DNA of 64,000 bases from Leucoraja ocellata (GCA_036785375.1 JAWMAR010000152.1:2232001-2296000); one strand, 5' to 3'; shown: positions 352-63,660, counted from the stretch's first letter. Notes: generated by a model from the letters alone, not told the origin. Translations and numbers: made by a program.

Positions 352-450
352 AGGTAGACACAAAATGCTGGAGTAACTCAGTGGGACAGGCAACATCTCC
401 GGAGAGGAGGAATGGGTGACGTTTCTGGTCGAGACCCTTCTTCAGACAAG
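352..450 (-). mobile_element. Short Penelope-terminus element with minimal hammerhead core
   Basis: TSD aatttagtcat at 341-351 and 451-461. The minus strand reads gtCTGAAGAagggtctcgaccaGAAACGTCacc. Confidence 0.75.
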
Positions 451-719
451 AATTTAGTCATTCTTGGTCCTGAATTTAGACATCATTAATTTAATGACAA
501 GACCATTTGGTCTTAAAGGCACTTTATATTTCTGAATGAATATTGGGACATTGTTGAAATTATTTCAACTATTGCATTGATTAATTTAATTTAATTTGGA
601 AATGGGTAGTTTCAGTTATTGAAAAGCAAAGAACTCCAGATGCTGTAGGTCACAATGAAGTGCTAAAATAACACTGTCTGCTTCCAGCAGAGCTGCTCAT
701 TAGTCCCAGTCCTCTGTAC

Positions 720-945
720 CCTCCAATTCATTTTCATTAGCCTGCATTTTTGTCCTATTGCCACTTATCTATACTAAGGGATAATTTACTGTGGCTAAAT
801 AACCCATCAGAGTACCTTTGGGATGAGAGGAAACCCAGTCATGTACAAACTCAATTATATATATATTTTTTTTAAAGCCTATTGTCAGAATTGAACCTGG
901 ATTGCTGGAGCAGCAGCCTACCTGCTGTACCACTGTGCTGCCTGA
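720..945 (-). mobile_element. Degenerate tRNA-derived SINE (HE1/V-SINE-like)
   Basis: The reverse complement resembles the SINE at 5811-6098 (gcagcacagtggtacagcaggtag...ccaggttcaatt). Confidence 0.55.
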
Positions 946-1091
946 ACTGTAGCATTTTATTTAAAACCAAATGGATCCAACAGAATTGGTGGGTGGGAGA
1001 GTGAAATTGTAAATTAAGTTTACCCTTTGATTGCCTGGCTGATTTATTTTTCTGAGCTTTCTGATTTTAAACCCTAATCCTTTCTTTTCAG

Positions 1092-1816
1092 GTGATAAAC
1101 ACATACGCCTCAACCTATCCGATGTTCACTTTGAGATGAACTCCAGTTTTGAGAAGGATGTAGAGATGATGGCTCCTCACCCCATGGACCAGAATTTGGG
1201 CAGTGCACTGTCCTATCTAGGAACAGAAGCAATGAGGCCTCCGAGGCTGCCCATAACCAGTTGTTTGCCGGAGATCACGCCTGTGATCAGTGCTGTCTAC
1301 TCCCATGTACATCCGATCCACAGCCGAGCTGAGGCACAGGGAGGGCGAGAGGCAGCAGAAGGTCATGAAGACGTGCCAGAAATTATGAATTCTAGAGCAA
1401 AAAATCAACTGGTTGAGCTTGGGGTGTCTCCAAGCAATGGTTGTCATGATTCCACAGATACAGAAAGCAGCCATGAAGACAGGAATGCCCATGCTTTTCC
1501 TAGTAACTATGTCACAAGGCAAAGCCCGGCCTATTCCAAAGAGGACCCAAAGGCACAGGAGCCTCCATCATCTGCCAAAGCAGCTCAAAGCTCAGCCAAA
1601 GAGGTCCTTAGAGTCTTAAATGAAGATGGAGAACAAGTTAAGGCTTATAATTGTAACCACTGCCGGGTTCTCTTTCTTGACCATGTAATGTTTACCATAC
1701 ACATGGGTTGCCATGGATTCAGAGACCCTTTTGAGTGCAACATCTGTGGCCACCACAGCCAAGATCGGTACGAATTCTCCTCGCACATTGTTCGAGGAGA
1801 GCATAAAGTGAGTTAG
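1092..1816 (+). CDS. IKZF4: Ikaros family zinc finger 4 (Eos), last coding exon with C-terminal dimerisation zinc fingers
   Basis: Acceptor tttcttttcag ends at 1091. The frame reads (G)DKHIRLNLSD...EITPVISAVY...SPSNGCHDSTDTESSHED...SPAYSKEDPK...CNHCRVLFLDHVMFTIHMGCHGFRDPFECNICGHHSQDRYEFSSHIVRGEHKVS*. The C-terminus and SPAY.KEDPK motif match Eos, and synteny with RPS26 and ERBB3 supports it. Confidence 0.95.
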
Positions 1817-4800
1817 AGAGGGCCACATGGACTACACTTTTCTACTCCCCTTGCACTGACTTCATCTAAAGAAGGAGGTGTTCTTACCAGGGTTGGACAA
1901 GATCATTGTTTTCAGGGATTAATCTACAGAATAAACGAGGGTTAAATTCGGCTCCAAATAAAACTAAGTGTACTCCATCTGGATTTTTTTGTTGCATCTT
2001 TAACAAAAATATGCTTAATTAAATTCTATTTAGTTGAATTTCAGAGGAGGAAAAATCCATATTTCTGGGGGCCCAATTTTACAGTTAATGACTTATGGTA
2101 CCTTTTTTTCCAAGCACTGATTTATCTGTAATGTATATAAGGCAGTATAGGTGGATTTAATGTAATAGGGATGAATTCAAAATGAGGCTTTAATTCCTAT
2201 CAAAGCTCCCTAATTAATGGACTTCAACTATTTTATCCTTCTAGATAATTAAGTGTTCAACTGTTCTTTAATACTAAAGACCTTGTGTAACTTTAGAAGA
2301 GAATCATCCAGTGGAAACTACTGACCCTTTTAGTGTCGTATGAATTCTTAACCTAGATAAGTAGCAGTAATTTATCCAAATGACATGCATCAAAGAAAAC
2401 TACCTATGTTTATGCCTTTGTGGAATTTGTCTTTGAAGTTTGATGTTTTATAAATGCCCATCTTTTTTAATCATTAATGAGGTTAGTTGAACTATCTAAA
2501 CATCTTGGCATTTTGACATTTTTTTATGGTGAAATAGATGATGCCTGTAATTGTTTTCTTAAAACTAGTTGGAAAAACTGTGGATTAATCCCAGACCATT
2601 GTGACTTGGCTATCAGTTGCACAATTAGGGTGTCCAGCCAGATTCTGTGAAAGCATTTTTGGGGAGGGAGGGGTGAGCACAGGCTCAGTGGTAATTTATT
2701 GGCAAGAATAACAGAAGAAATTTAAAATAACAGAAGATTTTAACTGCTTCAGTTTGATGATGCCCAATAATGTAGTAGTGAATGTGCCTCCTTTGTCACT
2801 GTGGTTACAAATTCATATCCTGTCAATGGTTCACATGTACTTGCCTACTGAAAGTCTGGTTGAGTTTGGCAAATTCTGGGTTGAACCAATGCACCATCTA
2901 GTTCTGTGTCAAATGACCAGCCTGTATGCTGAGCCACTGACTACCCTGGCACTATGTAGTGTAATTAAGCCAGAGTCGTCAGTGGGTGTGAAAATGGGAT
3001 TTGAGGAACTATTATGGTGAACTCAGACAATTTATGAAATTAGTGTCATAAGCAATCCAAACTACCTCGTTCTAGCTGTTGGATCTAATAACTACCATGA
3101 CGCAACATTGGCTGATGAGAGGCTTTGAATTGGTGGCTAATGGTGACTTTCTTATTCCCCTTCCCCTCACCAAGCTGTTTGAAGATGTCACAGTGTCACC
3201 AACCACTTAGAAAGTGTACACAAATTGAAATGCTCAGTCTTACTGGTGCATGATGGTGTCTGTTGTTCAGTACTTTCTGTGCTTGAAAACAGTGCCCCGT
3301 CTGCATAAAATGTTGACTTTTGGCCCAACAGTACAGTTTCTGTGTATACTTTCTGAAGTTCAAACCTTCTCCAAAGTCAGGATTCCAATCCATTAACTAT
3401 CACATGCATGTTGAGTTTCTTTAGTTTTTTTTGGCTGAAACACTGCAGTGCTTCTTACTCTGTGGGAAGAGGTAGCCATCTGTGTTCATGCTCACCAACA
3501 CTGGAGCAGCATTTGTCCAAGAAGCTGTGATGAAGTCTGGGTGTTTATCTAGGAATATGCAGTTTTTAAAACTTTAATCATATAATAAATACTTTTACTT
3601 TGGACCAAATGAGGTTTACAGGCAGAAGGTTAATATATTTTAAGCAATTAATGTGTTCTTATCTATTAAAAGGACTTTTCCAGATGTTGACTTTTAAATA
3701 GTGTCTGCATTCATATTTATAATTTAAAAATTCTGTAGCATAAAAACTTCACACTCCTGTGGTTGTAGGTTCATGTCCCAGGCTCGTGCATATTGGCCAC
3801 GTTAATGGTGAATAATAACTAATTCTCATTCTACTGACTGGATATGATCTATGATGAGAGTTGGATATTTTCAGCTGCTCCACTGTGGTGAGATGCAGGA
3901 AATAATATTTGGTGCTGGGCTTTGAGGGGAGGGTAAAATATGAAGAGAACTGGGAGGAGACTATTCTGCTTGTCTTTAGTAAAGGATGTTGGATGAAGGG
4001 GCACAGCCATTATGGAATGCAAGAGTTTATTCAGGATGGGTTTTATGGAGTTAATAGATTTTTGTAAAGTAGGAAACCCAGTGACATCTTCAGTTTGCAA
4101 GACATCAGTGCAAAGTCTAGATTATATTTTTTTTGAGGAGGAGAGGGGCTTCATGGATTGTAGATTTTTTTTGTCCAACCCTAAGTTTTTTTTTTTAAGA
4201 TTTTCAGTTATTTAATCTCTTTTGAACTGACACTTCTAGAATTATTTTCTGATTTTATTTAAATTATCTTTGCACATTAGTTTCTAATGCACACATATGT
4301 TGCACACTGTTCGGGCAGCTTGTTAGCTTCCTATTTCTTCTGCAGAGCCAAAGTCACAGTTCATTTTCTTCTCGTTCCAGTTATGTCAAACACACCTTTT
4401 TTTAATTAAGATTTAATACTTAAATCTGTGCAAATTACATTTATTTAAAATCTACTTTAAGGAGCCCTGCTGCATTAGTAGAAATATGTACCCCTGAGCT
4501 CTGATACAGTCTTGGGTTTCTGGTCTCTGAAGGAATGGGTCTGACTGCAAATTAGCAAGGGAGAGCTTGAGTCCCTCTACTGCTGCCGCCCTCTAAGCTG
4601 TTGGGACAGAAACCAGGGAAATTAAATTTATTGTTCTGTATCAGTTCAGTTAGACGCAAAGGTAGCAAGCTTTAAATTGTTAATACGATTAAAAAAATCA
4701 GAACAAGTTGCTGCTTGTGGAAATGAAGACAGCAGGTTGCTTTGAACTGCAGGAAATCCCAGCCAGTGCTGGTGGATGATGGTTCAATGTAGGAGATGTT

Positions 4801-5810
4801 TGTGCTTAAGACTGTAAATTCATCTTCCCCACAGGCCTTTGATGCACCTTTTTTGTGTGCTTGCTCTTGTCGCTTAATGGTACTATTGTTTTGCAAATTA
4901 AGTGTTGCGCTAAACTTGCAATCCTACTGCAAAAGGCAAGAATGGTCAAGCATTTACAAAAGGGGCACGTCTACCCTCAGAATCAACATATTTGGATGTT
5001 TGGAATCTGGGCGCATTGTCAAGGCTGACTTGAGCATCCTTTCCAAAATGATTGTATAATGTGGCGTAAAGGTGGAAATCCTGCACCAAACCAGCAGTCC
5101 AGTAAGTGTCCGAATCAGGTGATGTACATTTGGGCTAGATTCGCATTTTGCCCCTAAGAATCGGCAGCCTTCACCCAATGTCAGTTATCCAGTAAAGTGG
5201 CTCCCTGTAGCTGCCATCTACAATGTGAAAGAAACCCATTTTTCAAGTGTGACTATTTTTAATTTATCTCATTGTAATCTTGAAGCACTTTCAAAATGAT
5301 CTTAACCTGAAACAAATATCCTTTGTGCCTTTAATTATAGAGCATTGTAATATGTTTTGTATTTGTAATCTTAGTGTATTTTTCAATCCTACGTGGGACT
5401 ATGGATCATAAATCATTGATCTAGTTAACCCCACCTAGTCACACTGATATGACTGTCTCCACCAGAGATAAGCAGATGCAATTCTATTATTCTTTAATTA
5501 AAGGGACCTGGTTGAATATGTGTTTCCCACAAAAAAGATTTCTGATTGCGAGACAGTGCCTTGCAGCATCATTTTTGTTTCTATATTGAAAGTATTCAGA
5601 GTTGCGCAAACCATTATGAACAAAGTGTTTCTCAAAACCATTGCTTCGACACTGTGATAAATCTTGGCTTCAGTGAAGATAATCTGCATCTTTTTGACCT
5701 TGTAAGTAACTGCTGTGACCTTTCAGCAGGCTTTTTCCCTGTTTTCTAAAGCATTTTGTACTGTCTTGCACATCTGAATACACATCAAGGAATCTTGTCA
5801 TTCAAATCCT

Positions 5811-6098
5811 GGGCGGCACAGTGGCGCAGCTGGTGGAGCTGCTGTCTCACAACGCCAGAGACCCGGGTTCAATCCTGACTGTATGCAATTTGCACGTTCT
5901 CCCTGTGATTCCTCTGAGTGCTCCAGTTTCCTCCCACATTTCAAAGACATTTGTTGGTTAATTGGCCCTCTGTAAATTGTCCTCCAATATGTAGGGAGTG
6001 GATGAGCAAGCGAGACAACATAGAACTATTGTGAATGGGTGATTGATGGTCAGCGTGAGCTCAGTGGGCAGAAGGGCCTGTTTCCATGCTGTGTCTTT
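5811..6098 (+). mobile_element. tRNA-derived SINE (HE1/V-SINE type) with CR1-like 3' tail
   Basis: A-box-like gtggcgcagctgg, B-box ggttcaatcc, central ggttaattggcc and tail gggcagaagggcctgtttccatgctgt. Confidence 0.85.
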
Positions 6099-16212: not shown

Positions 16213-16309
16213 GTCAGAAGAAAGCTCCCGACCCAAAACATGACCTGTCCATGTTCTCTAGAGATGCTGCATGAGCAGCTGAGTTACTCCAGCACTTTGT
16301 TTTTTAACG
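16213..16309 (+). mobile_element. Degenerate short Penelope-terminus element
   Basis: gatgctgc...gctgagttactccagcactttgt. TSD taatga(a/c)agaca at 16201-16212 and 16310-16321. Confidence 0.65.
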
Positions 16310-19500: not shown

Positions 19501-20034
19501 AGCACGTGGACTTTAACAATTATCAGTCTAAGCCTGGATGTTACAGGTGTAGAAAACCCGACTTCAAGTGGTTTACGCACTTTCACACATTTAATGTGTA
19601 TAAGCGCTGTGATTTACATTTCTCACTCTTGTCTCGCAGGGGTGTTTTGAATGTTAACTGTCTGCACTAAGTGAAGAATAATTATGCTGGAAATAGTTTG
19701 AAACTATTTTGGTATACTTGTGATTGTTACTGGTACTAGCCTCCAGAGTTTGAAAATGTAAAGTGGTTTGATCAGTTTTATGTGACTGCTTGCTGCTGAC
19801 TAGAAATGTTTCCTTTTGCTCCATATACCAGCAAATTAGCAGCACTAACTGTCTCTTCCATTTACTTATGTTTTGGGGTTTTTTAAGGTGGAAATTGACA
19901 GATGCTTGATTAGAAAGGGTGTCAAAAGTTATGAGGAGAAGGCAGGAGAATAAGGTTGAGAGGGAAAAATAGATCAACCATGATTGAATGGAGGAGTGGG
20001 CCAAATGGCTTAAATCTGCTCCCATGACTTATGA

Positions 20035-20539
20035 GGTAGACAAAAGCGCTGGAGAAACTCAGCGGGTGAGGCAGCATCTATGGAGCGAAGGAAATAGGCA
20101 ACGTTTCAGGCCGAATCCCTTCTTCAGACTGATGCAAGGTGGGGGGGTGGGATGAAGAAAGGAAGAGGAGGAGTCAGAGGGCTGAGGGAGAGCTGAGAAG
20201 GGGAGGAGACAGCAAGGGTTACCGGAAATTGGAGAAATCAATGTTCATGCCGCTAGGGTGCAGACTGCCCAAGCGGAATATGAGGTGCTGCTCCTCCAAT
20301 TTCCGGTGGTGCTCACTCTGGCAATGGAGGAGGCCCAGGACAGAGAGATAGGACAGGTTTGGAATGGGAGGGGGAGTTGAAGTGCTGAGCCACCGGGAGA
20401 TCAGGTTGGTTATTGTGAACCAAGCGGAGGTGTTCGGCGAAACGATCGCCAAGCCTACGCTTAGTCTCACCGATGCAGAGCAGCTGACATCTAGAGCAGC
20501 GGATGCAATCGATGAGGTTGGAGGAGGTGCCGCACCCAT
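20035..20539 (-). mobile_element. 5'-truncated Penelope-like element (GIY-YIG C-terminal part and terminus with hammerhead core)
   Basis: Minus strand encodes ...LSVLGLLHCQSEHHRKLEEQHLIFRLGSLHPSGMNIDFSNF. Perfect 15-bp TSD tcccatgacttatga at 20020-20034 and 20540-20554. Confidence 0.85.
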
Positions 20540-21784: not shown

Positions 21785-22550
21785 CATAGAAACATAGAAA
21801 CATAGAAATTAGGTGCAGGAGTAGGCCATTCGGCCCTTCGAGCCTGCTCCGCTATTCAATATGATCATGGCTGATCATCCAACTCAGTATCCCGTACCTG
21901 CCTTCTCTCCATACCCCCTGATCCCCTTAGCCAGAAGGGCCACATCTAACTCCCTCTTAAATATAGCCAATGAACTGGCCTCAACTACCCTCTGTGGCAA
22001 AGAGTTCCAGAGATTCATCACTCTGTGTGAAAAAAGTTCTTCTCATCTCGGTTTTAAAGGATTTCCCCCTTATCCTTAAGCTGTGACCCCTTGTCCTGGA
22101 CTTCCCCAACATCGGGAACAATCTTCCTGCATCTAGCCTGTCCAACCCCTTAAGAATTTTGTAAGTTTCTATAAGATCCCCTCTCAATCTCCTAAATTCT
22201 AGAGAGTATAAACCAAGTCTATCCAGTCTTTCTTCATAAGACAGTCCTGACATCCCAGGAATCAGTCTGGTGAACCTTCTCTGCACTCCCTCTATGGCAA
22301 TAATGTCCTTCCTCAGATTTGGAGACCAAAACTGTACGCAATACTCCAGGTGTGGTCTCACCAAGACCCTGTACAACTGCAGTAGAACCTCCCTGCTCCT
22401 ATACTCAAATCCTTTTGCAATGAAAGCTAACATACCATTCGCTTTCTTTACTGCCTGCTGCACCTGCATGCCTACCTTCAATGACTGGTGTACCATGACA
22501 CCCAGGTCTCGCTGCATCTCCCCCTTTCCCAATCTGCCACCATTTAGATA
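21785..22550 (-). mobile_element. Young CR1 LINE 3' fragment
   Basis: ORF 21981-22532 reads RDLGVMVHQSLK...LYRVLVRPHLEYCVQFWSP...RRLRGDLIETYKIL...RTRGHSLR. (CATAGAAA)n tail at 21785-21808. Confidence 0.92.
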
Positions 22551-23040: not shown

Positions 23041-23217
23041 TTGCATTTAGTTTGTATTGAAACTAGCCAGTTCTGCCATTAAGTTCATTCATCTGTAATG
23101 GTAGTTCAACTCTTCCTCTCTCCTCAGACACTGCTTGATCTAATGGGCATTTTCAGAATACATTTGGTTTAAGGCCTCAGCAATAACTCTGACCTGCGTT
23201 TCGCAGCTTCTCTATGT

Positions 23218-24366: not shown

Positions 24367-25965
24367 GTGAGTGTCCGTCTCGCTGCTTCGTCCCGCCGCC
24401 GCCAGCGTCGCCCCCCGCTCCCCGTCCAGCCCTCGCCCTCCCGCTTCCAACACCCTTCTCTCCTCTCATCGACCCCTGGGAAGCGGTGGTCGAAGCACGG
24501 AGCCGTTTGCGGGCCGAGGCCTACAGGCCGGGCCCGGCCCAGGAGCCTGCCTGTCTCCCCGCGGGACAGGGCCGCCTTGCGCGGGCACCAGGAGGCGGTT
24601 TGCTGGGTGGGGACACCGTCTGTCAAATGCACTGCAAGCCAGCCAGCAGAAACGACCAGAGGGCTGATGTTACATTTTGATATGATATAACTTGAATTTA
24701 CTCACCATTGGAGACATCTTGTAGTTCGAAGCGAGGAACCGCTTCCAAAAAGGCCTTTGTATATTTGGAGCCCTGTTCCACAATCTGTGCCTGTTTTTAA
24801 CGTTAATATGTAATAAAATCATTAGAGGCAGCTGAAAATGTGAATATATGGAATCCATAGGTAGACTGGGGCACACAGTTTTTAACTTAAGAGCTTTTAA
24901 TCTCTAAGAACAGAAGCAAGAAATACTCAGCAGGCCAGGCAACATCACAATCACGATAATGCTTTATTAGCCAAGTATGTTTTGCAACAAACGAAGAATT
25001 TCATTTGCAAAGTCAGTCATACAATAAAAAGCAATGGAACGCACATCAATGGAGAGAGAACTATTCTGGAGAAACAAATCTATTCAAGTCTGCATTGAAT
25101 ACAAGTCTACTTAGAAGCAGTTCTCTCTTAAGTAGATCTATTCATTAGATCCTTAATCCCCAGAATAGTGCATAGTTTTGTTAATCTGAGTCAAGTCTCC
25201 AGAGCAATGTGAATTTTTGTGCAAGGAGGTGGTATACAACTGGTTTGAAGTTGCATTTTGGTTACCATTTCTAATGTTCCTGTAAATGAATAGTTGTGCA
25301 GGAACTGCAGTTGTTGGTTTAAACCGAAGATAGACGCAAAAATCTGGAGTAACTCAGTTGGTCAGACGGCATCACTGGAGAAAAGGAATAGGTGACGTTA
25401 GTCAGGGAATAGGGGTACAAGAATTCAGCCCCATGTCAAATATCCTACACTAACACAGGTGAAGAGCAATGTCAATTTGATGTGTTTGTCAACCTAGCAT
25501 GTTGTATGTAGTGTTAGCACAGAGGCTAAATTACGATGCTAGGGAGTGTTGTGGAGCACTGCTCCAAGAACATTTTTGAATCCTGTGACAATAAGAGAAA
25601 TTAAATTCAAATGATTATATCTGGATGTCTTTTTTTTCCAATAAATTTGAGAAACACAGCTGGTAGATTGTTAAACCCATCTGATTTGTTAGTGTCCTTG
25701 AATAAAAGTCTGCCATCTTCACCCCAGGGTGGTCCTATGTGTGACTTGAGGCCTATGATTGTTGTTCATTTTTAACACCCTCCACGACTCGAGGGCACCT
25801 TGAGTGGGCAATAAATCCTGGTCTAGCCCGCATTGAATACAACAACAAAAAACGATTTTAATTTGAGAACCGATAACTACAATGTATGGTTTATCCAATC
25901 TGATTGGTGAGCATGCAGAATGGCATTTCACTGTACCTCAGTACATTTGACAATTATAGAACTAA

Positions 25966-31916: not shown

Positions 31917-33278
31917 TTACACAAAAGTGCTGGAGAAACTCAGCGGGTGCAGCAGCATCTATGGAGCGAAGGAAATAGGCAACGTTTCGGGCCGAAACCC
32001 TTCTTCAGACTGATCGGGGGCGGGGGTGGGCGGGGACAAGAAATAAAAAGGAGGAGGAGCCCGAAGGCTGGGGGATGGGAGGAGACAGCAGGGGGACTGA
32101 GGAAGGGGAGGAGACAGCAAGGACTAACAAAATTGGGAGAATTCGATGTTCATGCCCCCAGGATGCAGACTCCCCAAACGGAATATGAGGTGCTGTTCCT
32201 CCAATTTCCGGTGCTGCTCGCTGTGGCCATGGAGGAGACCCAGGACAGAGAGGACGGAGTGGGAGGGGGAGTTGAAGTGCTGAGCCACCGGGAGGTCCGC
32301 TTGGTTATTGCGGACCGAGCGGAGGTGTTCGGCGAAATGATCGGTCTCACCGATATAGATCTGCTGACATCTAGAGCAGCGGACGCAATAGATGAGGTTG
32401 GAAGAGATGCAGGTAAACCTCTGTCGCACCTGGAACGATTGCTTGGGTCCTTGAACGGAGTCGAGGGGGGAGGTAAAGGGGCAAGTGTTGCATCTCTTGC
32501 GGTTGCAAGGGAAAGTGCCCGGGGAGGGGGTGGTACGAGAGGGAAGGGAAGAATTGACAAGGGAGTTATGGAGGGAGCGGTCTTTGCGGAAGGCAGATAT
32601 GGGGGGAGATGGGAAGATGTGGCGAGTGGTGGGGTCACGTTGGAGGTGGCGAAACTGACAGAGGATTACTTTTTGTATGTGACGGCTGGTGGGGTGAAAG
32701 GTGAGGACTAGGGGGACTCGGCCCTTGTTGCGAGTGGGGGGATGGGGAGAGAGAGCAGTGTTGCGGGGTATGGAAGAGACCCTGGTGCGAGCCTCATTTA
32801 TGGTGGAGGAGGGGAACCCCCGTCCCCTGAATAATGAGGACATTTCAGATGTGGAACGCCTCATCCGTGGAGCAGATGCGGCGTAGACGGAGGAATTGGG
32901 AGTAGGGGATGGAGTCCTTACAGGAAGCAGGGTGGGAAGAAGTGTAGTCCAGATAGCCATGGGAGTCAGTGGGTTTATAGTGGATGTCAGTCAGAAGTCT
33001 ATCACCTGCAATGGAGATAGTGAGGTCAAGGAATGGTAGGGAAGTGTCAGAAATGGTCCAGCTGTATTTGAGTGCCGGATGGAAGTTAGTGGTGAAGTGG
33101 ATGAAGTCAGTCAGTTGTGTGCGGGTGCAGGAGGTGGCACCAAAGCAGTCGTCGATGTAGCGGAGGTAGAGGTCAGGGGATGGGGCCCTGGTATGTATTG
33201 AACAAGGATTGCTCGACGTAACCTACAAATAGGCAGGCATAGCTGGGGCCCATGCGTGTGCCCATAGCTACGCCTTGT
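31917..33278 (-). mobile_element. 5'-truncated Penelope-like retroelement (partial RT, GIY-YIG endonuclease, hammerhead-bearing terminus)
   Basis: Minus strand reads QGVAMGTRMGPS, RYIDD, YKPTDSHGYLDYTSSHP, CNRKRCNTC and SSNLIYCVRCSRCQQIYIGET. 15-bp TSD tagtgtaaatgaatg at 31902-31916 and 33290-33304. Confidence 0.92.
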
Positions 33279-34610
33279 AAATGTGTAAATAGTGTAAATG
33301 AATGATCGATGGTCTGTGATCTTTCAGTCAATTATGCTTTTAGGTAACTTTTCGTTTGGAAGCCTTCGGCTAATTTATTCTACTAAACAATTGGTCTAAA
33401 TTTTGCTTTCATTCATTCATTCTGATCCTTGTGGGATAGATGGCGTACAACTATTTCCTAGATTTCCTAACAACATTCAGCTTAACCGATCGATTGTGTC
33501 CCTATCTTCAATCACAGGCTGATTCCCCTGATCAGAACCGTTTTAGTTTCTCCCTGCACTGTTAATCCAGAACTAGCCACAAGATGGTGCTTAAGAGCAA
33601 CAAATATCCCTCCCGTCAATAACACAGACAGATTGGAAAGACACTATCGCATCTGCTTCCACCACCACCCTGGACCACACAGTCCAGGTACCTGCTGCTT
33701 TATGTAAGATAACAAAAACTTGTCCAGTACATCTCCTTTAAACATTCCCTAACAGTCCTCTCCTGCAGCTTCCCTATTACTGATATGAGGCACGTCAACC
33801 TATAACTTCCTGGATTATCCCTGTTTTCCTTCATAAACGAACAACATTGGCTAATAATAATAATATATTTTATTGTCATTGCACATCAGTGCAATGAGAT
33901 TTAGTAAATCAAGGCTCCAGCAATCTCTCTTGCCTCTCGGGCCCTGGAATCATTAACTAACGTCCTTCAAGAGACCCAACGCCACTTCCTGCTTGATCTC
34001 AATGTGCCCTACACCCCATGCTGATCTCATCCTTGGTCAATACCGATACAAAGTACTCATCCTTGCTAACTCCTGTCTAATAATGTTATAATCGTCTTTA
34101 CCCCAAGGTCCAGACTTACCTTTATTCATCACTATCTCAACATTTATCACTGTTTCCACAATGCTCTCCACTGAAACACCAGTCATCCGGTCAGCATTAT
34201 TCTGTGACACAATGTCTGGAATGAGCCCCCCCCCCTCCTCAAATTGAACTATTCACATGCTGTTTCAAGAAAGCCTCTTGGATATATCTGCCAAATATTG
34301 CCCTATCTAATCCACTTGCACTGAGCAAGTCAATGATCCAGTCAATGTTGGGGAAACTAAAGTCACCCATTATGACCAAAGATCCTATAGGATCTTTGAT
34401 TATGACAACCCTGTTGCTTTTATGTCTTTCTGTAATCTGTCTACACATCTGTTCCTCTGTCCCAGTGTCTATAATCCTATCAGAGTGATTGCACCTTAAG
34501 TATTTAGAATTCTACCCATATCACCTCAATGAATGAACCCTCCAGTATGTGACAATCTCCCTGATTAGCAATGCAACTCCTCCACCTCACTTACATCTCA
34601 CACACTTACA

Positions 34611-36166: not shown

Positions 36167-37252
36167 TAGCTGAAGTATGATGGAGAATACACAGCTTTCA
36201 CCCCCTCCTGTCTTCATACACCTCAGTATGGAGGGTATAAAATTAATTGGTGTTCGCGACCCTCTGTCTACTGCCCCCTCCTGGTACGTGCGTGTGTATG
36301 CATGAGGACAGGTTCAATTGAACGCGAGACAGTACCAAAGATCACAAGATTAAGTAAAACAAGACACAATGTGCTGGATCAGACAGGGTCAGGCAGCATC
36401 TCTGGAGAACATGGATAGGTGACGTTTCGGATCGAGACTTGTTCAAACTGATTGTAGAGATGGGGGGGGGGGGGGGGGTGAGGAAGAGAAAGATGGAAGA
36501 GAGGGGGTGGGTGGACAAAGCATAACAAGTTCCTCGTCTTTATAAGATTAAGTAATCCAGTTTGAAACAACACCTTTTGGACAAAATGGGAACAACGAAA
36601 GATTAGCGGGAAGATTTTAAATGACGGTGTTAACAGCGTTTTATAAATAGCCCATTACTCGCCCATAAATGATTTACTTCTATTTTAGATTTTGGGAAAA
36701 ACGAAATATTTTCAAAGCATATTATTGATTGGTACGTATTTCATACAATCTGCAATACCAACGTGTGTATTAGCGTCTTGCGCTCACGATTGCTGTAACT
36801 CCGCCCCGACACGAGATGGACTATGAGGTGGCTAATAAACTGTACGGCTCAACTTTGACAAAGTGGGATTTCACTAACACACGCGTTGTTTTATAATGTC
36901 ACCAAACTCATACTTTAAACACAATCTGGTTGATGTTCGGTTCCTTAAATGTGTTCAAATAAAAACGATGCGTGCATCTTGGGCATCAGTGTGGCTTCTC
37001 ACCTTCCTGGTGATGTGATTTGGCTTCAGAAGGTGGAGCCAACCCCATGTGTCATATCAGCGAGAAACTGCCGAGAGCGGAGCGCAGAGCAACAAGTCGA
37101 CTAGCAATCAGAAAGTTTGACTGAAAACATTCTCAACATTTCCAAACGATTTAACAATCTCGTGGGTTTTATTTAATTTTAAAAAGTACAAGTCATGGAG
37201 CTAATTTCATAGAAGTGACTCAAGGATACGAAGCCAATCTGGAAGGGAGAAG

Positions 37253-38115: not shown

Positions 38116-38272
38116 TTTAAGAAGGAACTGCAGATGCTGGAAAATCGAAGGTAGACAAAAGTGCTGGAGAAACTCAGCGGGTGCAGCAGCATCTATGGAG
38201 TGAAGGAAATATTTCCATCGCTCCATAGATGCTGCTGCACCCGCTGAGTTTCTCCAGCACTTTTGTCTACCC
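38116..38272. mobile_element. Palindromic Penelope-terminus element
   Basis: 61-bp arms at 38150-38210 and 38211-38271 (2 mismatches, no spacer). TSD agatt(t/c)attctg at 38104-38115 and 38273-38284. Confidence 0.8.
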
Positions 38273-39377: not shown

Positions 39378-39489
39378 GGTAGACAAAAATTGCTGGAGAA
39401 ACTCAGCGGGTGAGGCAGCATCTATGGAGCGAAGGAAATAGGCAACGTTTCAGGTTGAAACCTTTTCTTCAGAAGTAGTTCCTCCTTCG
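39378..39489 (-). mobile_element. Short Penelope-terminus element with hammerhead core
   Basis: TSD acatttgtttaa at 39366-39377 and 39490-39501. Minus strand reads CTGAAGAaaaggtttcaacctGAAACGTT. Confidence 0.78.
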
Positions 39490-39937: not shown

Positions 39938-40508
39938 CCTGGTGGAATAAAACTGGGTGAAAAAAAAGTCTTCTGTGAAGTGTGCTAGGACATGTCCCAC
40001 CACAAAGGTGCTTTGTGGATGGAACTCGTTCCCACTTTAGTCAGTAACAACTGGTCACAATTGTGAGATTTATGGACTAGTTATCTCCCTTCAAACCTGC
40101 TCGACCATGTATGTTACATCCTACTCCTCCTGCATCTTACATATTCACCTGGTAGACATAAAGTGCCTGAGAAACTCAGTGGGTGCGGCAGCATCTATGG
40201 AGCGAAGGGAATAGGCAACGTTTCGGGCCGAAACCCTTCCGCTACTATCCAACAAAACAACGGAGCAATATCACTGAGCATCTCTTTAACATCACATGGC
40301 ACTCGGTGTAAGCAAGCAGGAATGTGGGTAGGCTTGCTTTTTGTTCAACTGAATTCACCGTGCCAAGTGTTCTGGAGGCACCAAACAAATACTGCAATCA
40401 CCTTTTCCCCCCTCTGCCTCACTTTCTCTCCCCCTCTCTTGCTCTTTCTCCCTCTCTTTTAACTTTCAAGAGAGAGTTGGAGTTTTCAACAGAGCGTTAG
40501 ATTTAGCT

Positions 40509-40715
40509 AGACAAAAATGCTGGAGAAACTCAGCGGGTGAGGCAGCATCTATGGGGTGAAGGAAATAGGCAACGTTTCAGGTCGAAACCCGGAAGGGTTT
40601 CGTCCCGAAACGTTGCCTATTTCCTTCGCCCCATAGATGCTGCCTCACCCGCTGAGTTTCTCCAGCAATTTTGTTTACCTTCGATTTTCCAGCATCTGCA
40701 GTTCCTTCTTAAACA
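40509..40715. mobile_element. Palindromic Penelope-terminus element inserted in a CR1 3' end
   Basis: Long inverted arms. Perfect 12-bp TSD ttagatttagct at 40497-40508 and 40716-40727. Confidence 0.85.
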
Positions 40716-45312: not shown

Positions 45313-46049
45313 ATGAAACTAATACAAAAGTGGAGAGAAACAAAAAGTGCTGGAGTAACTCAGTGGGTCAGGCAGCAACTCTGGAGAAAAGGGTTGAGTG
45401 ATGTTTCGGGTCGGGACCATTCTTCAGACTTTAGTGGGATTGGTCTGCAGTCTGATTTTGTCCAGCATGGCCAACGATGGGCTGAATGGCCTTGTTTTGT
45501 ATTTTTTATTCCAATAACTGATTTGTATTTGTATAGGGGGGGGGGGGGAGGGGGCAAAGTCTGTTAATGAAAGCACGAGCATCATTCCTCGTTTACTCGG
45601 GGTGCTTTGGCACTAGTCTTGGTGCTTTTCTACCACCTGAATGAAATTCTAAAAGCTGCTTTGATGCCCCATGAATGAATTCCAACTAACACAAACCTTG
45701 CACAGACAAAAGCACCTGCGATTATTTTCCCATTTTCTACTTGTTCTTTTAAGTGGAACAGCGCTAATTTGTTTTGGCTGTAACTTGGACTCTCTTCTTG
45801 CAGCTGTACATGTCGTTCAGTGCCAGTGAGAATGAAACAATCTCGTTGGAAGAGCAAGTCTGACTTGCTTTTCAAAAAAAAAATCCAGTTTCTCTTCCCC
45901 CCTCCAAAGGTGCTGAGACACACACAAAGATACACGGCTCTGTCCCGTGTGTCCAGTGAGCAGACGGGTATTCAACACAACCCCCCAAGCAAGCAGATTC
46001 TGCTTGGCAGCCGAGCCCATTCCCAGCCTCCAAGAGCAGACGCCATTTG

Positions 46050-54327: not shown

Positions 54328-54458
54328 AAGAAGGAACTGCAGATGCTGGAAAACGTTTCTTCAGACTGAAGAAGGGTTTCGGCCTGAAACGTTGCCTATC
54401 TCCTTTGCCCCATAGATGCTGCTGCACCCGCTGAGTTTCTCCAGCACTTTTGTGTACC
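54328..54458 (+). mobile_element. Short partly inverted Penelope-terminus element with + strand hammerhead core
   Basis: CTGAAGA at 54366-54372 and GAAACGTT at 54386-54393. TSD ttccacttt(a/g)taacc at 54313-54327 and 54459-54473. Confidence 0.82.
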
Positions 54459-54908: not shown

Positions 54909-55122
54909 TAGAAACAAGGAACCACAGATGCTGGTTTACAAAGGAAAGACACAAAATGCTGGAGTTACTCAGCGGGTTAGGCATGTCTCTGGAGAACATG
55001 GATAGTTGACATTTTGAGTCGGGTCAGACTGAAGAAGGGACCCGACCCAAAACATCACCTTTCTTTTTTCCACAGAGATGCTACCTGATTCGCTGAGTTA
55101 CTCCAGCACTTTGTATCTATCC
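54909..55122. mobile_element. Older palindromic Penelope-terminus element
   Basis: tgctggagttactcagcggg...ctgaagaagggacccgacccaaaacatcacc...gctgagttactccagcac; possible 7-bp TSD aggaatg. Confidence 0.7.
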
Positions 55123-57749
55123 AGGAATGGTGGGTTTGCCACATGAGGAGAGATTGAGTGAACTGGGACTGTATTCTCCAGACTATATGGAAGAATGCAT
55201 GCAGTGAGAATGTTTGTGTTTGGCTCAGAAGTCTAGATATTCCTCCCTTCACCCACGCTGAGAATTTCTAGACTTCATTGTTTTTAATTTTATATTTCCA
55301 GCATGTGCAGATTTTTCTTCTCCGATTACATACTTGCTTTTGAAGTGAGGGGAAATGTCGAGTGGGAAAATAACTGGTTTCTGAGCCGGCTCTCCAGCTT
55401 TGTTGGCTCACTGAGATGGTGTGGACAGATGAACTGGGCAGGATACAATGCAGTTTATGCTTCAATGTTTCGTCACCAATGCGTTTTCTAGCTGTATCAG
55501 TCTGTCTGAGCGGACGTTTTTCTTCAGACTGCTTTCCCGTTAAGATGCCGGGCATCTGTGATAGGTATTAGCCAAGAGCCCACAATACACTGTGGTGTGG
55601 ATATCTCCCTCTGACCGTTACACTGAGTTTATTGTCTGGGAAGGCCTCATGACACCGGAGTGACTGAAAGCAGATCGTCTGTTGCCGTGAAATCACAATG
55701 GTGTTTTGTACTGAACGTGACTCACCCTTCAACCCTGAAGTTAGAATTTCTGCACCCTGACAAGTGAAGAAATGGTGTCTACCAGTTTTGCAAACTGCAT
55801 GTCGCATCAGTGTTTATAATCTACAGTATGCAGACTGTATGAATAATCCAGATGAACGAGTGTGGCTCTCATGCTGAGTGGTGTAACCCTCAGTTGGTAT
55901 TGTCTGGTATTGCCTGATATTGTTTCTTCCCGGGTGAGCTTATAGTTGAACAGTATCCCAGAGTGGGCGTTTGGAATTTGGGTCGACTTCCACAGGGGGA
56001 GTTTATGGTTAAAGGGGGGGGGGGGGGTAGTGGTGAAGAAGGATAGAGGTGCAGAGAAATGGGACAGATCAAGGATAACACGGCGGAGACCTGGGACAGT
56101 TCAGAAGGGCTAAATGGCAAGTTTGTGTTGTTAATGTTCTTGAATCAGGAGAAAATGATGGAAAGTGAAGGGTATATAATTGTGAGCTTTTAGGCTGCAT
56201 CTCTGGAACATGTGGTTGGGTGACGTTTTGGGCCCGGACCCTTCTTCAGATTGATGATACAGACTTCAGACTTGTAAGTTACAAGGACGTACTAAAGTGG
56301 CAGTAGGTGTGGCAAAAGAACAAGTCTTTCATCCTCATATCTAAGAGGCATTCTTTGTTCCCGGGAGTGTGTACCGGAACTGCAGATTCCAATAGGCTAC
56401 ATGATGAAGCCCATTGAGTCACACAGTGCCAACCATGTATGACCAATTGCCTTTTATCTAGATTGCACTGACTGATTTTTTTCTAAAAAGACAAAAAGAC
56501 AATCGAGAATTCTGTGCATGGCTGGGGGAAGAACTCCCAGTGTGATCTGTCAGGGAGAATAAAGGTCATGACTGTGTCTCAATTAGCATAACACCAACAG
56601 CCCATTTGTTTCGACTTCAACACATCTCCAGCCCTGCTCAATGTTTCACTGTGGAGTAGGTCTTCACAGCACTGACAACGAACCTTCCATTTTTTTTACC
56701 AATGCGTTGTGGCTCTGAGCTCAGCAGTCAAGAGGCAAATTCTCTCCCTCCCATCCTCTTCCACAAGATCACTTGTCAGGTCAGTAAACCCAGAGAGTCA
56801 CTTGGACATTGAGGGAAAGACACGTACAAAGTATAGAAGGAGCAATGAACAAGGAGCTGCAAATGCTGGCTTAGATAAAAGGACACAAAGTGCTGAAGTA
56901 ACTCAGCCGGCCAAGTAGCATCTCTGCAAGTGTCCCGACCCAAAATTCAAGTTCTCTATTTGATCTTCTAAATTACTCCAGTACTCCGTGTCCAACTTGT
57001 ACAAAGTAATTGTGTCAGTTGTCCTTCGAGCTTTGGGGACACTCCCAGGTAAGGTATAGCACAATCATAGCATCTCAATGAAATAAGCGCTTCTTCCAAC
57101 ACTGTTCTTGTGAAGTGGGAACTCCTACATCTGAGCACGCCTGTTGTACTGATGTAAGCTTTCAACTTCCCATGTTGTTCCCATGAATGACATTCATGAG
57201 TCTCGTGTACAATGAAACACAATAGGACATTCGCCTTATCCAAAGAGTAGTTAGAAGGTGGAACTCGCTCACAGTGGTTGAGGCACATATGCATTGAAAG
57301 GGAGACTGAACAACCATTTGAGGGAGAAGGGGATAGAGGGCAAGTTGAGAGATTTAGATAAGGAAAGATGCTCAAGTGGAGTATGAACACCACCATAGAC
57401 TGGTTGGGCCAAATGGACCATGCCATATATCCTGCGTAATTCAATAAATTATACTCTGCTTTATGCTATGAGTTTACAGCCACAAATTCAACATATCGCT
57501 GCCCATTTCTCTGGGCGGCATCTCAAAAGGATTTTGTCTCTGCTCTCTGCAACACACTGTGTGCCTTAAGTGTGGGTTCAATCTAGCAAATCAAATCCTG
57601 AAATAAAACAGCAGATTTAGGATGGAATTAATTGTCCAGATGTGTAGAGTTAGACTAATGAATGCTCTGAGGAGCATAAATATTTCTGAGCAATTTGAAG
57701 AATGGCAGTGAGCATCATTTGTCAGAAGATCTGTGCATAGTAAAACAGA

Positions 57750-60324: not shown

Positions 60325-60545
60325 CAAGTAACTGCAGATGCTGGTTTACAAAGAAAAAGACACAAAGTGCAGGAGTAACTCAGTGGGTTAGGCAGCGTTC
60401 CTGGAGAACATGGATAGGTGGTGTTTCGGATTGGGACCTGATCTGATACAAACCCGAATCCCAACCTGAACAGACACTTATCCATGTTCTCCAGAGATGC
60501 TGCCTGACCCGCTGAGTTACTCCAGCACTTTGTATCTATTTTTGT
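60325..60545. mobile_element. Older palindromic Penelope-terminus element (target of the 60037-60324 insertion)
   Basis: acaaagtgcaggagtaactcagtggg...gatgctgcctgacccgctgagttactccagcactttgt. Confidence 0.7.
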
Positions 60546-62744
60546 TCTCTCTGTGACTTGCGTAGGTTTCCCTTGGGTGCCCCAGTTTCCTCCAACATCC
60601 CAGAAATGTGCAGGTTAGTAAGTAACATTTTGGGCAAATATTTGGTATAGAAGGTGGGCAGCATGTGAGCCCTTTTACCTCTTCATTGATGTGTACTGCA
60701 CAGTCTGACTACAAGCTTAGTTCTTTGTCTTCTTGGACTGCCCAATTCCAGGGTTCAGAGGTATCAGATCAGGTCAAAGTGGGACTCACAGACTGTGCAG
60801 GTGACACAGGAGTTGACTGATGGGGAGGGTGGGTGCTGTTGCCCAGATTGTTGCGCACTCCTGCTTGTTTGGGCTTCGGTTCCACTTACTGATGTTTTGG
60901 ATCAGGAGACTTCAGCACACTGTTCACTGCTGAACAATTGTTTGTCATGATGTGGCTCAGAACAGTGGGTCCGTTTCAGCTTGGCTAATGAATGTAGCCA
61001 TCATCATATCAGCACAATGGTCAGGCTGGAGGGAAGTGTAGAAGTTGGGGAGTAGGAGATGAAACTAACAAATATTCCATGTTTACCTTCTTCTCTTGCA
61101 CAATTGCTTACTTGATGCATCTACGAACCAGAACTAGGGGAATATTTGTGTAACAGGAAAATTAAACATTTCCAGTCAATTGATATGGATGTGGCTAAGA
61201 TCTGAACGTGGAGCCAGGGGAAGGCACAGAATAGCGTTAACAGCTGCGGTGTGCCAGGACATTTGTGTTAAGCAGCTTGCACACTACACTGTGAATTGTT
61301 TAATTGTTGAATCCAGAAAATGCCTGCGGGTGACTCTGTCCAACTTTGCCAAGTGGTCAGAGATTATGGCTCCTCTCCTCAGAAGCAGAGTAGATAAGTT
61401 GGAGGCTGATAAAGTATTCGGCCTCAAAGCCTGACAAAGCCGGGTTTGTCCGATGTGCCAATTCACAAAGGGCTACCTCTGGTTTCTCCCTGTGTGAAGA
61501 CCATTGTTTCTGAATAAAGACCCTGATTATACTGCCATTAGCTATGGCAGTTTGAGGGGCCTGTGGAATCTGACCTTTTGAAGGCCGAGTACTGCTGAAA
61601 AGGCAGAGCTAAAGAGTCAAAAGGCTTGGATTAAAACGGGCCCCATCCAGCTGCAATGGATTGTGGAGTTTAACCCTTGGAACCCTCTGATGAAGGGGGA
61701 AAATGTTGCAAAGTAGGTGGGGTGGAGACGGGAAGGGAAAGACAATGAACCACACAGCTCAAAACTGGCGATGGACACTTGTTGTGACCACATGAGTTTT
61801 CCTGTGACCACTTATTTCATCCGAGTGATTCTCTTTCCTCCCACGTCCCAAAGCCAGCAGGTTGTTTGGTTAATTCACCTCTGAAAATTACTCCAGTGTG
61901 TAGGTGAGTTAGAGAATCAAAGGGTGGAGAATAATTGATGGGAATGTGGGGAGACTAAAATGAGTTTGGATAGCATTGGTGTAAAAATGGATGCTTGATG
62001 GTCAGCACAGGTTCAGTGGGCTGAAAGGCCTGTTTCCGTGCTATAACTTTGTGACTTGCTCCTCTATGCCCCACCTCCTCAACCACGTGCTGTGTCACTA
62101 AGCATCTCCTTGTCAGCATTGGAAAAGTGGGTTGGTCCGAGTGTAGCCAGATCAGGATTGTGGCCAGTGTGGCATTAGAGGTATACCAGGCTTGCTGCTG
62201 TGCCTGCCAACACACACCATCCAATCCCCTCCCTTGGAGGATGGCCACATAGAAGTATTTGAGTCACTTAACCGTCAGTAGTTACATGAGGGGAGGAGCA
62301 AGGAGATGCACTTTCCCATCGGCGCAGAGAATTCGGAATCCCTGTGGCTATTTTTCCATGTTTCCGGGTGCCTAGGGCGAGACCTCGCATGTCAAGCCTG
62401 TGCCAGTGAGCTGCCGTCTTTCAGTGTGGTTTGTTTGCCTGTGGAGTGCAGGAATGTGTACTTTGGTTGAGGTGTATAAGTGGGTCCTGCTCTGCTCCAG
62501 TAGGTAGAATAGGCCAACTGTATTGTGCTGTTGCTTGGAGAGGAGGCTTTTCCCTTACCGAAGCAGATGTGAAGCCAACTTGCTCTGTTTGAGCACTTTA
62601 ATACTAAACAAGGCATGGGAATCTTTTTCCGCTTGGGCGAGGACTCTGTCGTATCAGTGCTATCTAGCAGCAGAGTAGAAGCTGGAAACGGTGTGATAGT
62701 TCTATGCTTGGCATGTTGGCATACCTGTGTCACCTACAATAAAT

Positions 62745-62835
62745 AGATACAAAGTGCTGGAGTAACTCAGCGGGACTGGCAACATCTCTGGAGAGAATGA
62801 ATGGGTGACGTTTGGGTCGAGCCCCTTCTTCAGAC
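62745..62835 (-). mobile_element. Short Penelope-terminus element
   Basis: tgctggagtaactcagcggg...gtgacgtttgggtcgagccccttcttcagac. Confidence 0.7.
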
Positions 62836-62894
62836 ATAAGTTGCAGATTGGTACATGCAGTATCAATATGGTATAGAAGTGCCGTGCCTGGGTA

Positions 62895-63270
62895 ACACTA
62901 TTAGGTGAAAGATCTTAGGTGCTTCAAACATAGCTTATATTTCTGTAGCTCCTGTAGAAAACACATGCCATTGTATAATTGATTATCAAACATAATTCGA
63001 CATTGAATCTCATGCGGAATATTGCGATTAGTGAACAAAAGCTTGGTCAGTTTGGAATGTTTTAAAGAGGTGAAAGCAGTGGAAAGGTTGAGGGAGGGAA
63101 TTCCAGAACTCGGGCCCAGCCGGCTGAAGGCACGATCACCAGTGGTGGAGTAATTAGCTTTGGAGAAGGACATGACACCAGAGTTGGAGATTTGGGGGCT
63201 TTAAAGCTAGAAGGGGGTACAAAAACATGAAGGAGTGAGATTGTAGAGGGATTGGAAAACGAGGATAAAA
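62895..63270 (-). mobile_element. L2 LINE 3' fragment
   Basis: Minus strand TTGDRAFSRLGP.(W)NSLP motif. Confidence 0.6.
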
Positions 63271-63439
63271 ATAATAGGTTTGGTAGTATTATTTGACTGG
63301 CTGGCTGCTCTTGCTCACACTGATGATTTTAGGGCATTCAGATCTGAGAGCAGTGCACCTATCTGCTATCCCAATGAAAGGTAGAGATCTCTCACAAATG
63401 AAAAGATAATCCGTTCCAATGATGTTAACTTAAAGACAG

Positions 63440-63660
63440 TAGAAACAAAAGGTGCTGCACATGTAAGAGTCTTGAGCAAAACACAAAGAGCTGGAGGAAC
63501 TCAGTGGGTCACACAGCATCTGTGGAGGGAATGGATCAGCACCGACTCGGGTCGGGACCCTTCTTCACACTAAAAAATGGTCCTGATCTGAAACATGGCA
63601 TATCAATTCCCTCCACAGATGCCGCTTGACATGCTGAGTTGCTCCAGCAGTTTGTTTTTA
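63440..63660. mobile_element. Older palindromic Penelope-terminus element
   Basis: gctggaggaactcagtggg...gcatctgtggagggaat and attccctccacagatgc...ctgagttgctccagc. Confidence 0.65.

What the first reader, a model, noticed from the sequence alone, without database searches (positions are those of the whole stretch)
352..63660. Dispersed ~100-210 nt Penelope-terminus units with their own 11-16 bp TSDs, several carrying a minimal hammerhead ribozyme core
Seen: about 20 copies of one ~95-nt motif (e.g. 352, 16213, 20035, 25300, 31917, 36362, 38116, 39378, 40151, 40509, 45339, 54328, 54909, 56195, 60325, 62745, 63440). The motif is the 3' terminus of the RT/GIY-YIG Penelope element at 31917-33278. 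In element sense the best copies read CUGAAGA-stem II (GGG...CCC)-GAAACGUH, followed by a conserved GCUGAG...CCAGC hairpin. At least six ORF-less copies have clean TSDs (341/451, 16201/16310, 38104/38273, 39366/39490, 40497/40716, 54313/54459), so each was a separate insertion. Known: Penelope-like elements carry minimal type I hammerheads with a palindromic ACGU stem III that are proposed to act as dimers. Inference: this may be a non-autonomous, ribozyme-processed short retroelement family (retrozyme/SINE-like) mobilised by the Penelope RT/endonuclease, with at least two subfamilies (GUC- and GUU-cleavage types). Stem I looks only about 2 bp by eye, so activity is uncertain.
Basis: partly seen in the sequence, partly recalled or inferred. 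Interest (0 to 1): 0.7.

Follow-up and report, generated by a model that had tools for sequence, protein, structure and literature searches.

The report
Run-off stubs of a Penelope retrotransposon
These short repeats are real, separately inserted copies of the ribozyme-bearing end of a very active, known kind of jumping gene, not a separate mini-element; most stop just in front of the ribozyme while full-length copies pass that point, so they likely mark where the element's uncut RNA begins.

Summary
Observation confirmed: 26 arms of the motif in the window, all six claimed TSDs real. The unit is the end of the pseudo-LTR of a young Neptune-type Penelope-like element (1217-aa RT/GIY-YIG ORF, tandem copies in the genome): minimal hammerhead, hairpin, optional 40-nt tail. 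About 410 loci per 1.26 Mb.

The retrozyme/SINE reading is not supported. Every subfamily has ORF- or 3'UTR-linked long members, short copies have no diagnostic changes, 72 of 573 arms keep the core, and 5' ends pile up at -7..+10 from the hammerhead's C3, about 30 nt upstream of the cut site (+28).

It is not ordinary truncation either. First-pass copies stop there in 42 of 61 cases, near-full-length copies reaching the same sequence in their 5' pLTR in 3 of 53 (p=6e-13). So it is no intrinsic RT roadblock. Likeliest: RT starts internally 95-135 nt from the RNA 5' end and runs off; long copies need a continuous (circular, multimeric or strand-transferred) template. No RNA start or cleavage was shown. 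The scan has noted this family and the run-off reading before, here and in other genomes.

The parts
31917..33279 (-). 5'-truncated copy of the autonomous Neptune-type PLE: RT C-terminal part, Cys linker, GIY-YIG (frameshifted, with stops), pyrimidine-rich 3'UTR, terminal unit; TSD about 15 bp at 31902/33290
   Evidence: (96% to full-length L071)
31975..32014 (-). Minimal type I hammerhead motif of that copy: C3 at 32008, extra A after A9, stem II, GAAAC-GUU; predicted cut between 31981 and 31980; 2-bp stem I; YAG/Inr-like hexamer at 32009-32014
   Evidence: sequence; pair counts
352..450 (-). Short unit, GUC type, intact core, 99 nt between TSDs 341/451
16213..16309 (+). Short unit, old, core decayed, TSD 16201/16310
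20034..20530 (-). Longer copy: endonuclease end, 3'UTR and unit with intact GUU core; no TSD found
25300..25406 (-). Unit starting at about +22, with tail; no TSD found
36358..36543 (-). Longer copy with pyrimidine-rich 3'UTR, TSD 36346/36544
38116..38272 (.). Head-to-head two-arm insertion, both arms starting at +31 (3 nt past the predicted cut), one arm with tail; TSD 38104/38273
39378..39489 (-). Short unit starting at -1, preceded by inverted tail fragments; TSD 39366/39490
40151..40241 (-). Short unit starting at about +5; no TSD found
40509..40715 (.). Head-to-head insertion, arms starting at +8 and +5, one with tail; TSD 40497/40716; folds as one long hairpin
45338..45430 (-). Old short unit starting at -3
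54328..54458 (+). Short unit with intact GUU core, preceded by an inverted tail piece and a short palindrome; TSD 54313/54459
54913..55122 (.). Old head-to-head insertion, one arm with tail
56192..56250 (-). Decayed partial unit
56848..56926 (-). Decayed arm with tail
60325..60541 (.). Old head-to-head insertion, one arm with tail
62744..62836 (-). Short unit, GUC type, core with a 1-nt loss in stem II
63478..63659 (.). Old head-to-head insertion of the most diverged cluster

Best explanation
The short units are separately inserted copies of the pseudo-LTR end of an active Neptune-type Penelope-like retrotransposon, and they are likely run-off products of its own uncut RNA: the element's RT would start inside the RNA at one of two sites (+91 or +130 from the hammerhead's C3), copy 95-135 nt and fall off the RNA 5' end at about -7 to -3. 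Shown: identity with the pLTR and tail, two 3' end classes, TSDs, the 5' pile-up upstream of the ribozyme, and that near-full-length copies pass the same sequence. Inferred: internal initiation (by analogy with the Anolis element in vitro); that the pile-up is an RNA 5' end, perhaps a transcription start at an initiator-like hexamer; that head-to-head copies arise when both ends of the break prime a cDNA and the two are joined; and that long copies come from a second, continuous template class (ribozyme-made circle, multimer, or strand transfer through the repeated unit). The hammerhead is kept by the autonomous masters and rides along passively in the stubs, where it decays.
For: Full-length elements are [3'UTR-unit]-tail-ORF-3'UTR-unit (L071, L072, L074), so the 40-nt tail is the sequence after the 5' pLTR, as in PAc where RT starts at two internal sites that bound the tail (PMC11167929). 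In a 1.264-Mb position-picked sample, coverage by >=90% copies rises from 7 at -8 to 52 at +10; per-nt stop rate 0.049 in -12..+11 against about 0.002 upstream. A fresh 200-kb set repeats it: 12 of 15 young arms end in -12..+11. Tail-bearing and tail-less copies stop at the same place, so the stop depends on position, not length. Near-full-length copies: 50 pass, 3 stop, of 64 distinct loci (8 end before the unit, 2 inside it, 1 chimera; 6 duplicates of 70 dropped) against 19 pass, 42 stop on first pass; Fisher p=6e-13; age-matched at >=95% identity 8 pass, 21 stop, p=3e-10, and p=3e-6 against only the 24 passes with a unique junction. No diagnostic column and no excess of short-short neighbours in any of 5 clusters. 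98 of 102 inverted loci are head-to-head. In long copies -4..-1 is conserved as YAGU across subfamilies with different UTRs. D. virilis Penelope has an internal Inr/DPE promoter in its pLTR (PMC2377424).
Against: No RNA start was seen: in 6 distinct runs laid in two calls no place with many molecule starts, and no sense-strand template-switch junction among the listed loose ends (lists were cut). A cap-like extra G before A(-3) was 17 of 24 in the discovery set (p=0.007, three positions tested; 15 of 22 on re-run) but 3 of 6 in the pre-stated replication sets, and almost none of these copies had a TSD to show the G is untemplated: not replicated. 5' ends spread over about 18 nt, not one base. 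Simple run-off from a start at -3 predicts that full-length copies also end there, and only 3 of 53 do, so a second template class must be added. The same YAG after a pyrimidine tract also fits a splice acceptor, as in D. virilis where the intron ends at helix I and the start lies 121 nt upstream. 26 of the 50 passes ran off the fetched stretch, so duplicates among them cannot be excluded; the full-length set is the top-scoring 70 of 150 listed hits, not a random draw. Internal initiation is shown only for a Poseidon element.
Confidence: 0.6

Rival explanations
1. First-pass roadblock: the template is long, but the initiating RNP stalls at the front of the hammerhead domain (RT tethered to the ORF-start RNA, or a host protein such as a splicing factor on the pyrimidine tract/AG), and complexes that escape once are processive thereafter.
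For: The stop abuts a conserved pyrimidine tract plus YAG; ends are spread over about 18 nt; it needs no second template class; stop rate is also raised over +12..+61 (about 0.009 per nt).
Against: A sequence-encoded block should act again at the 5' pLTR, yet 50 of 53 pass. A tether predicts a length-dependent stop, but +91 and +130 starters stop at one position. The predicted stable stem spans about +2..+41 and would be met at +41.
Confidence: 0.17
2. Non-autonomous but uncut mini-element: some short copies are transcribed from an internal initiator-type promoter or by read-through and are re-copied in trans, SINE-like.
For: Very high copy number (410 loci in 1.264 Mb); cluster 2 has only 1 long member of 28 and cluster 4 has 8 of 68; non-autonomous PLE derivatives exist (MRC1, PMC8557442).
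Against: No diagnostic columns or short-only neighbourhoods (84-nt resolution only); youngest short copies are 99-100% identical to the ORF-linked pLTR; stubs lack the downstream ORF-start RNA that PAc needs (PMC11167929); 5' ends are not inherited as one fixed base.
Confidence: 0.13
3. One reading: ribozyme-processed retrozyme-like family whose ends are set by hammerhead cleavage.
For: Core is invariant in all 5 cluster majorities, with U-A/U-G covariation at stem I pair 1. A minor group of ends lies at +25..+37 (9 arms at 7 loci, against 2 loci in +12..+24; p=0.09), including window 38114-38272.
Against: 50 of 79 young arms end upstream of or at the front of the core, with the cut site uncut inside them. 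72 of 573 arms intact. Not tandem. The hammerhead fold is predicted 6-14 kcal/mol above a fold that pairs the core away. Cervera 2014 saw no monomer and low dimer cleavage for such motifs.
Confidence: 0.07
4. Ordinary random 5' truncation of full-length elements.
For: Copies that pass -12 end at scattered places out to -1986; most PLE insertions are said to be 5'-truncated.
Against: A roughly 20-fold jump in stop rate over 24 nt, repeated in a fresh sample and absent on second pass.
Confidence: 0.03

Closest known systems
Minimal type I hammerheads in pLTRs of metazoan PLEs (Cervera and De la Pena 2014, PMC4209133; parts 1-2 of 4 read)
   Same: Same core, extra base between 9 and 10.1, G10.1-C11.1, palindromic 15.2-16.2; thousands of dispersed single motifs and close opposite-strand pairs were already ascribed to truncated PLEs, including fish Neptune elements.
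   Different: Helix I is 2 bp here (as in D. virilis) rather than 4-5; the parts read report no shared 5' boundary of the dispersed copies and no cartilaginous fish.
Poseidon of Anolis carolinensis, PAc (Frangieh 2024, PMC11167929; parts 1-2 of 4 read, supplementary figures not seen)
   Same: Two 3' end classes bounding a tail that is the pLTR-ORF junction; both strands primed; uncleaved RNA is the main substrate.
   Different: Different clade; here the hammerhead lies about 165 nt upstream of the ATG; the parts read do not describe genomic run-off stubs or a first-pass/second-pass difference.
EN+ PLEs of the Neptune/Nematis type: pLTR, partial tandems, inverted 5' copy, one-sided 30-40-bp tail, solo pLTRs (PMC8557442, PMC3846280; passages)
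   Same: ORF layout, Cys linker, tandem and head-to-head structures, tail, long TSDs.
   Different: Solo pLTRs in the rotifer were put down to recombination or deletion; here many have their own TSDs and a shared 5' boundary, at about 320 loci per Mb.
Non-LTR retrozymes of animals (PMC7229834, passages; bioRxiv 10.64898/2026.07.22.740005, parts 1-3 of 5)
   Same: ORF-less, pLTR-derived, type I hammerhead, dispersed monomers also counted.
   Different: Defined as tandem repeats with a hammerhead in each unit and circular RNA; these units are single or inverted, uncut, mostly dead and collinear with the autonomous pLTR.

Membership tests
EN+ PLE, Neptune/Nematis type | Single ORF with RT and C-terminal GIY-YIG | tested here: met
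   L072 1217 aa: RVT_1 E=7.9e-5 at 703-870, GIY-YIG E=0.012 at 1121-1155, both under Pfam's curated cut-offs; the broken window pieces alone gave no Pfam hit
EN+ PLE, Neptune/Nematis type | CX2-5CxxC linker motif before GIY-YIG | tested here: met
   seen in the translation; feature named in PMC8557442
EN+ PLE, Neptune/Nematis type | pLTR by partial tandem, optional 30-40-bp tail, head-to-head inversions | tested here: met
   three hits 3946 bp apart on C300
EN+ PLE, Neptune/Nematis type | RT tree placement in Neptune rather than Nematis | not tested
PLE minimal hammerhead | Conserved core, extra base 9/10.1, G10.1-C11.1, palindromic stem III | tested here: met
   all 11 core positions invariant in 5 cluster majorities; stem II pairs 79-97% in 62 long copies
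PLE minimal hammerhead | Helix I of 4-5 bp | tested here: not met
   two pairs (90%, 85%), then two mismatches (13%, 8%), then two weak pairs (75%, 70%) in long copies; like the D. virilis 2-bp variant
PLE minimal hammerhead | Self-cleavage as dimer or with protein | not testable with these tools
   folding predicts an alternative stem 6 kcal/mol more stable in the master
Non-LTR retrozyme | Tandem units each with a complete hammerhead | tested here: not met
   units are single or inverted; the 66-bp tandem arrays seen lack the CUGA half
Non-LTR retrozyme | Unit ends set by ribozyme cleavage | tested here: not met
   main 5' ends at -12..+11, cut site at +28
Non-LTR retrozyme | Abundant circular monomer RNA | not testable with these tools
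   runs laid were poly(A), single-cell or contig data
SINE-like non-autonomous family | Own lineage with diagnostic changes apart from the autonomous partner | tested here: not met
   0 diagnostic columns, neighbour test not significant in 5 of 5 clusters (low resolution)
SINE-like non-autonomous family | Separate insertions with TSDs | tested here: met
   TSDs mostly 10-16 bp
SINE-like non-autonomous family | Own promoter or head unrelated to the partner | tested here: inconclusive
   unit is collinear with the pLTR throughout; an Inr-like hexamer is present but no start was shown

The most novel reading that the evidence does not exclude
The genome holds about a million fossil strong-stop products of a Penelope-like element: linear, uncut RNA can give only the 95-135-nt stub, and whole-element and tandem copies come from RNA that the hammerhead has cut and closed into a circle (or from a retrovirus-like strand transfer through the repeated unit). 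The ribozyme would then be the switch between abortive and productive copying, which would explain the tail, the partial tandems and why PLEs keep a weak hammerhead.
Probability: 0.25. Interest if true: 0.7.

Novelty: new variant of a known kind. Interest (0 to 1): 0.4.

Why it matters
As an object it is ordinary: pLTR ends of a known retrotransposon class with a known ribozyme motif. Its value is as a record of mechanism. How Penelope-like elements make tails, tandems and inversions, and what their hammerhead is for, is open (PMC11167929, PMC4209133). It also explains a large share of this genome's short repeats without invoking a new element.

Tried and rejected
Genome-wide DNA search of the unit returned nothing because common words are skipped: no count from it; copy numbers are extrapolated from sampled stretches on large contigs (about 1.1 million loci, rough). 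Rfam: only hairpin-like chance hits, no hammerhead. The look-up of sequencing runs: no RNA holder listed among indexed runs. Spliced-template model: no GT..AG joint ending at the YAG among listed RNA joints (lists cut), TSD-bounded stubs often keep bases upstream of the AG and share no common first exon: rejected as the main source. Cap-G signature: hint in discovery, not replicated. Tail/no-tail pairing in inverted copies (45 mixed, 26 tail-tail, 4 none of 75): tail calls were noisy, not used. Monomer folding z-scores showed no excess structure. Lunse et al. 2017 on dimer cleavage was not held; known only from a review passage and reference list. Supplementary figures of PMC11167929 could not be seen and may bear on genomic 5' ends.
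Full report
Numbering. Positions are counted in element sense from C3 of the hammerhead core (0); the predicted cut lies between +27 and +28. In the window's ORF-bearing copy C3 is 32008 on the minus strand. The genome is 3.44 Gb.

1. Observation. The motif is at all listed places; 26 arms in the window. All six TSDs hold, against a chance rate of 8 in 300. Five of 26 arms keep the full core. Two of the six TSD copies are head-to-head doubles and two carry inverted tail pieces. Rfam finds no hammerhead.

2. The parent element. A 113-aa RT piece from the window finds 36,125 candidates in the genome, the best 150 at 97-100% identity. Twenty long-ORF loci were fetched; four hold the whole ORF, three of them as [endonuclease end, 3'UTR, unit]-tail-ORF-3'UTR-unit. 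The ORF is 1217 aa from an ATG about 72 nt after the unit, with weak RVT_1 and GIY-YIG hits and a Cys linker typical of Neptune/Nematis. Hits 3946 bp apart show full tandems. The 40-nt tail on many short copies is the sequence that follows the 5' unit. 3' ends fall near +90 and +130. In the Anolis element PAc, RT starts inside the RNA at two sites that bound the tail, needs ORF-start RNA downstream, extends both target strands and uses mostly uncut RNA (PMC11167929).

3. Census. In 1.264 Mb (window, 200 kb beside it, 1 Mb at round-number places on large contigs) there are 577 arms at 410 loci; 102 loci are inverted, 98 head-to-head; 72 of 573 arms have an intact core, 47 GUC and 25 GUU. 279 near-complete arms fall into 5 k-means clusters 7-22% diverged; each has members continuing into a pyrimidine-rich UTR (16/61, 12/66, 1/28, 20/56, 8/68) and tblastn hits to the endonuclease upstream (6, 3, 1, 16, 3; a few are inversions or jumps). 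Short copies show no diagnostic column and no short-only neighbourhood. So no separate lineage is visible, at 84-nt resolution.

4. The 5' boundary. Among copies >=90% like the master, coverage is 7 at -8 and 52 at +10. Of 98 arms with unit identity >=88%, 37 end after +11 (including tandem-array units), 42 in -12..+11, 19 pass; stop rate 0.049 per nt against about 0.002 upstream. A fresh 200 kb gave 12 of 15 in the window of the stop. TSD-bounded single copies end between -7 and +8, often with microhomology or a few extra bases. Both 3' classes stop at the same place. This is 20-35 nt upstream of the cut site, so cleavage does not set it. A smaller group at +25..+37 (7 loci against 2 in the 13 nt before; p=0.09) may be cut RNA; window 38114-38272 belongs to it.

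5. The deciding test. A search with the ORF N-terminus (4967 candidates, 150 listed) gave 70 loci, the top 30 as returned and 40 more taken down the list. After dropping 6 duplicates: 50 run through the 5' hammerhead into the previous unit's UTR, 3 stop in -12..+11, 2 end inside the unit, 8 end before it, 1 is a chimera with an old unit. Against first-pass copies p=6e-13; age-matched p=3e-10; using only 24 passes with unique junctions p=3e-6. The stop is thus not a property of the sequence. It also means full-length copies are not simple run-offs from a start at -3. Seen afterwards: 5 of these copies end at +80..+89, just past RT start 1, against 0.5 expected (post hoc, and three have complex junctions), and 2 at +111 and +119; a circle copied once round would give this, but their 3' ends could not be fetched.

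6. The ribozyme. All 11 core bases are invariant across cluster majorities; stem II is 4-5 bp; stem I is 2 bp with U-A/U-G variation, then two mismatches. An alternative stem pairing the core's purines with +29..+41 is predicted 6 kcal/mol more stable in the master and 7-14 in two window copies. Such motifs cleave poorly even as dimers (PMC4209133) and need protein in PAc. Short copies decay with CpG loss (25%); core sites change slightly less than others (7.0 vs 9.3%), which I put down to ascertainment but cannot exclude as weak selection.

7. What lies at the boundary. Long copies of all subfamilies have a pyrimidine tract then YAGU before C3. This fits an initiator (consensus recalled) with A at -3, and equally a splice acceptor, as in D. 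virilis, where the intron ends at helix I and the start is further upstream. An extra G before A(-3) was enriched in discovery (17 of 24) and not in replication (3 of 6). RNA reads showed no start pile-up and no spliced joint there; they are dominated by dispersed copies and the tissue is unknown.

8. Mechanism. Best reading (0.6): internal start at +91/+130 on linear RNA whose 5' end is near -3, run-off, integration with a 10-16-bp TSD; two such cDNAs primed from both ends of the break give head-to-head doubles; a minority class of continuous templates gives long copies and tandems. Rivals: first-pass-only roadblock (0.17), uncut SINE-like recopying (0.13), ribozyme-processed retrozyme (0.07), random truncation (0.03).

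9. Known and new. Dispersed minimal hammerheads from truncated PLEs, opposite-strand pairs, tails and solo pLTRs are in print. I found no paper describing a shared 5' stop at the hammerhead front or a first/second-pass difference in nine searches; subscription papers and Lunse 2017 were not available. Papers seen: bioRxiv 2026.07.22.740005 parts 1-3 of 5; PMC11167929 and PMC4209133 parts 1-2 of 4; PMC2377424, PMC3846280, PMC8557442, PMC7229834, PMC6765202 passages only. Earlier scan notes report the same family in this genome and the run-off reading in other genomes; I had stated that reading before the first look-up, and these notes are not independent evidence.

Verdict: real, a variant of a known kind, not a new element; moderate interest as a testable record of PLE replication.

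Noticed in passing
L057:861-1947 and 3947-4316; L058:961-1173 and 5560-5833; L134:7629-8086: Tandem arrays of a 66-bp unit running from the GAAAC half of the hammerhead to the hairpin end, lacking the CUGA half; minisatellites born from the pLTR end.
   Followed up: no
L071:3248 (element +19), runs X23 and X24: 228 and 187 reads end here in a loose sequence that looks like a template-switch adapter (recalled), implying antisense RNA 5' ends or RT stops at the end of stem II; reads over the 3'UTR and hammerhead lie mostly on the antisense strand in these two runs. May be an artefact or one expressed locus.
   Followed up: no
L209, L223, L179, L174, L225, L182, L229: Near-full-length copies whose 5' ends lie just past the two RT start sites (+80..+89, +111, +119).
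   Followed up: partly
L194-L198: A duplicated locus in which a young tail-ORF is joined seamlessly to an old, 75%-identical unit, suggesting insertion into or recombination with an old stub.
   Followed up: no
L162:6834-7253: A copy running from +1 to +189, into the ORF start, paired with an inverted piece of the endonuclease region; a further-downstream RT start.
   Followed up: no
L101:1053-1183 and L164:4521-4600: Endonuclease C-terminus joined almost directly to the hammerhead, skipping the pyrimidine tract.
   Followed up: no
window 23217-23302: An unrelated perfect inverted repeat of about 38 bp per arm.
   Followed up: no
window 31500-31850: The ORF-bearing copy sits at the 3' end of another repeat with several copies in the window (21797-21842, 28000-28043, 40824-40869), resembling a CR1/L2-type LINE end (recalled).
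   Followed up: no
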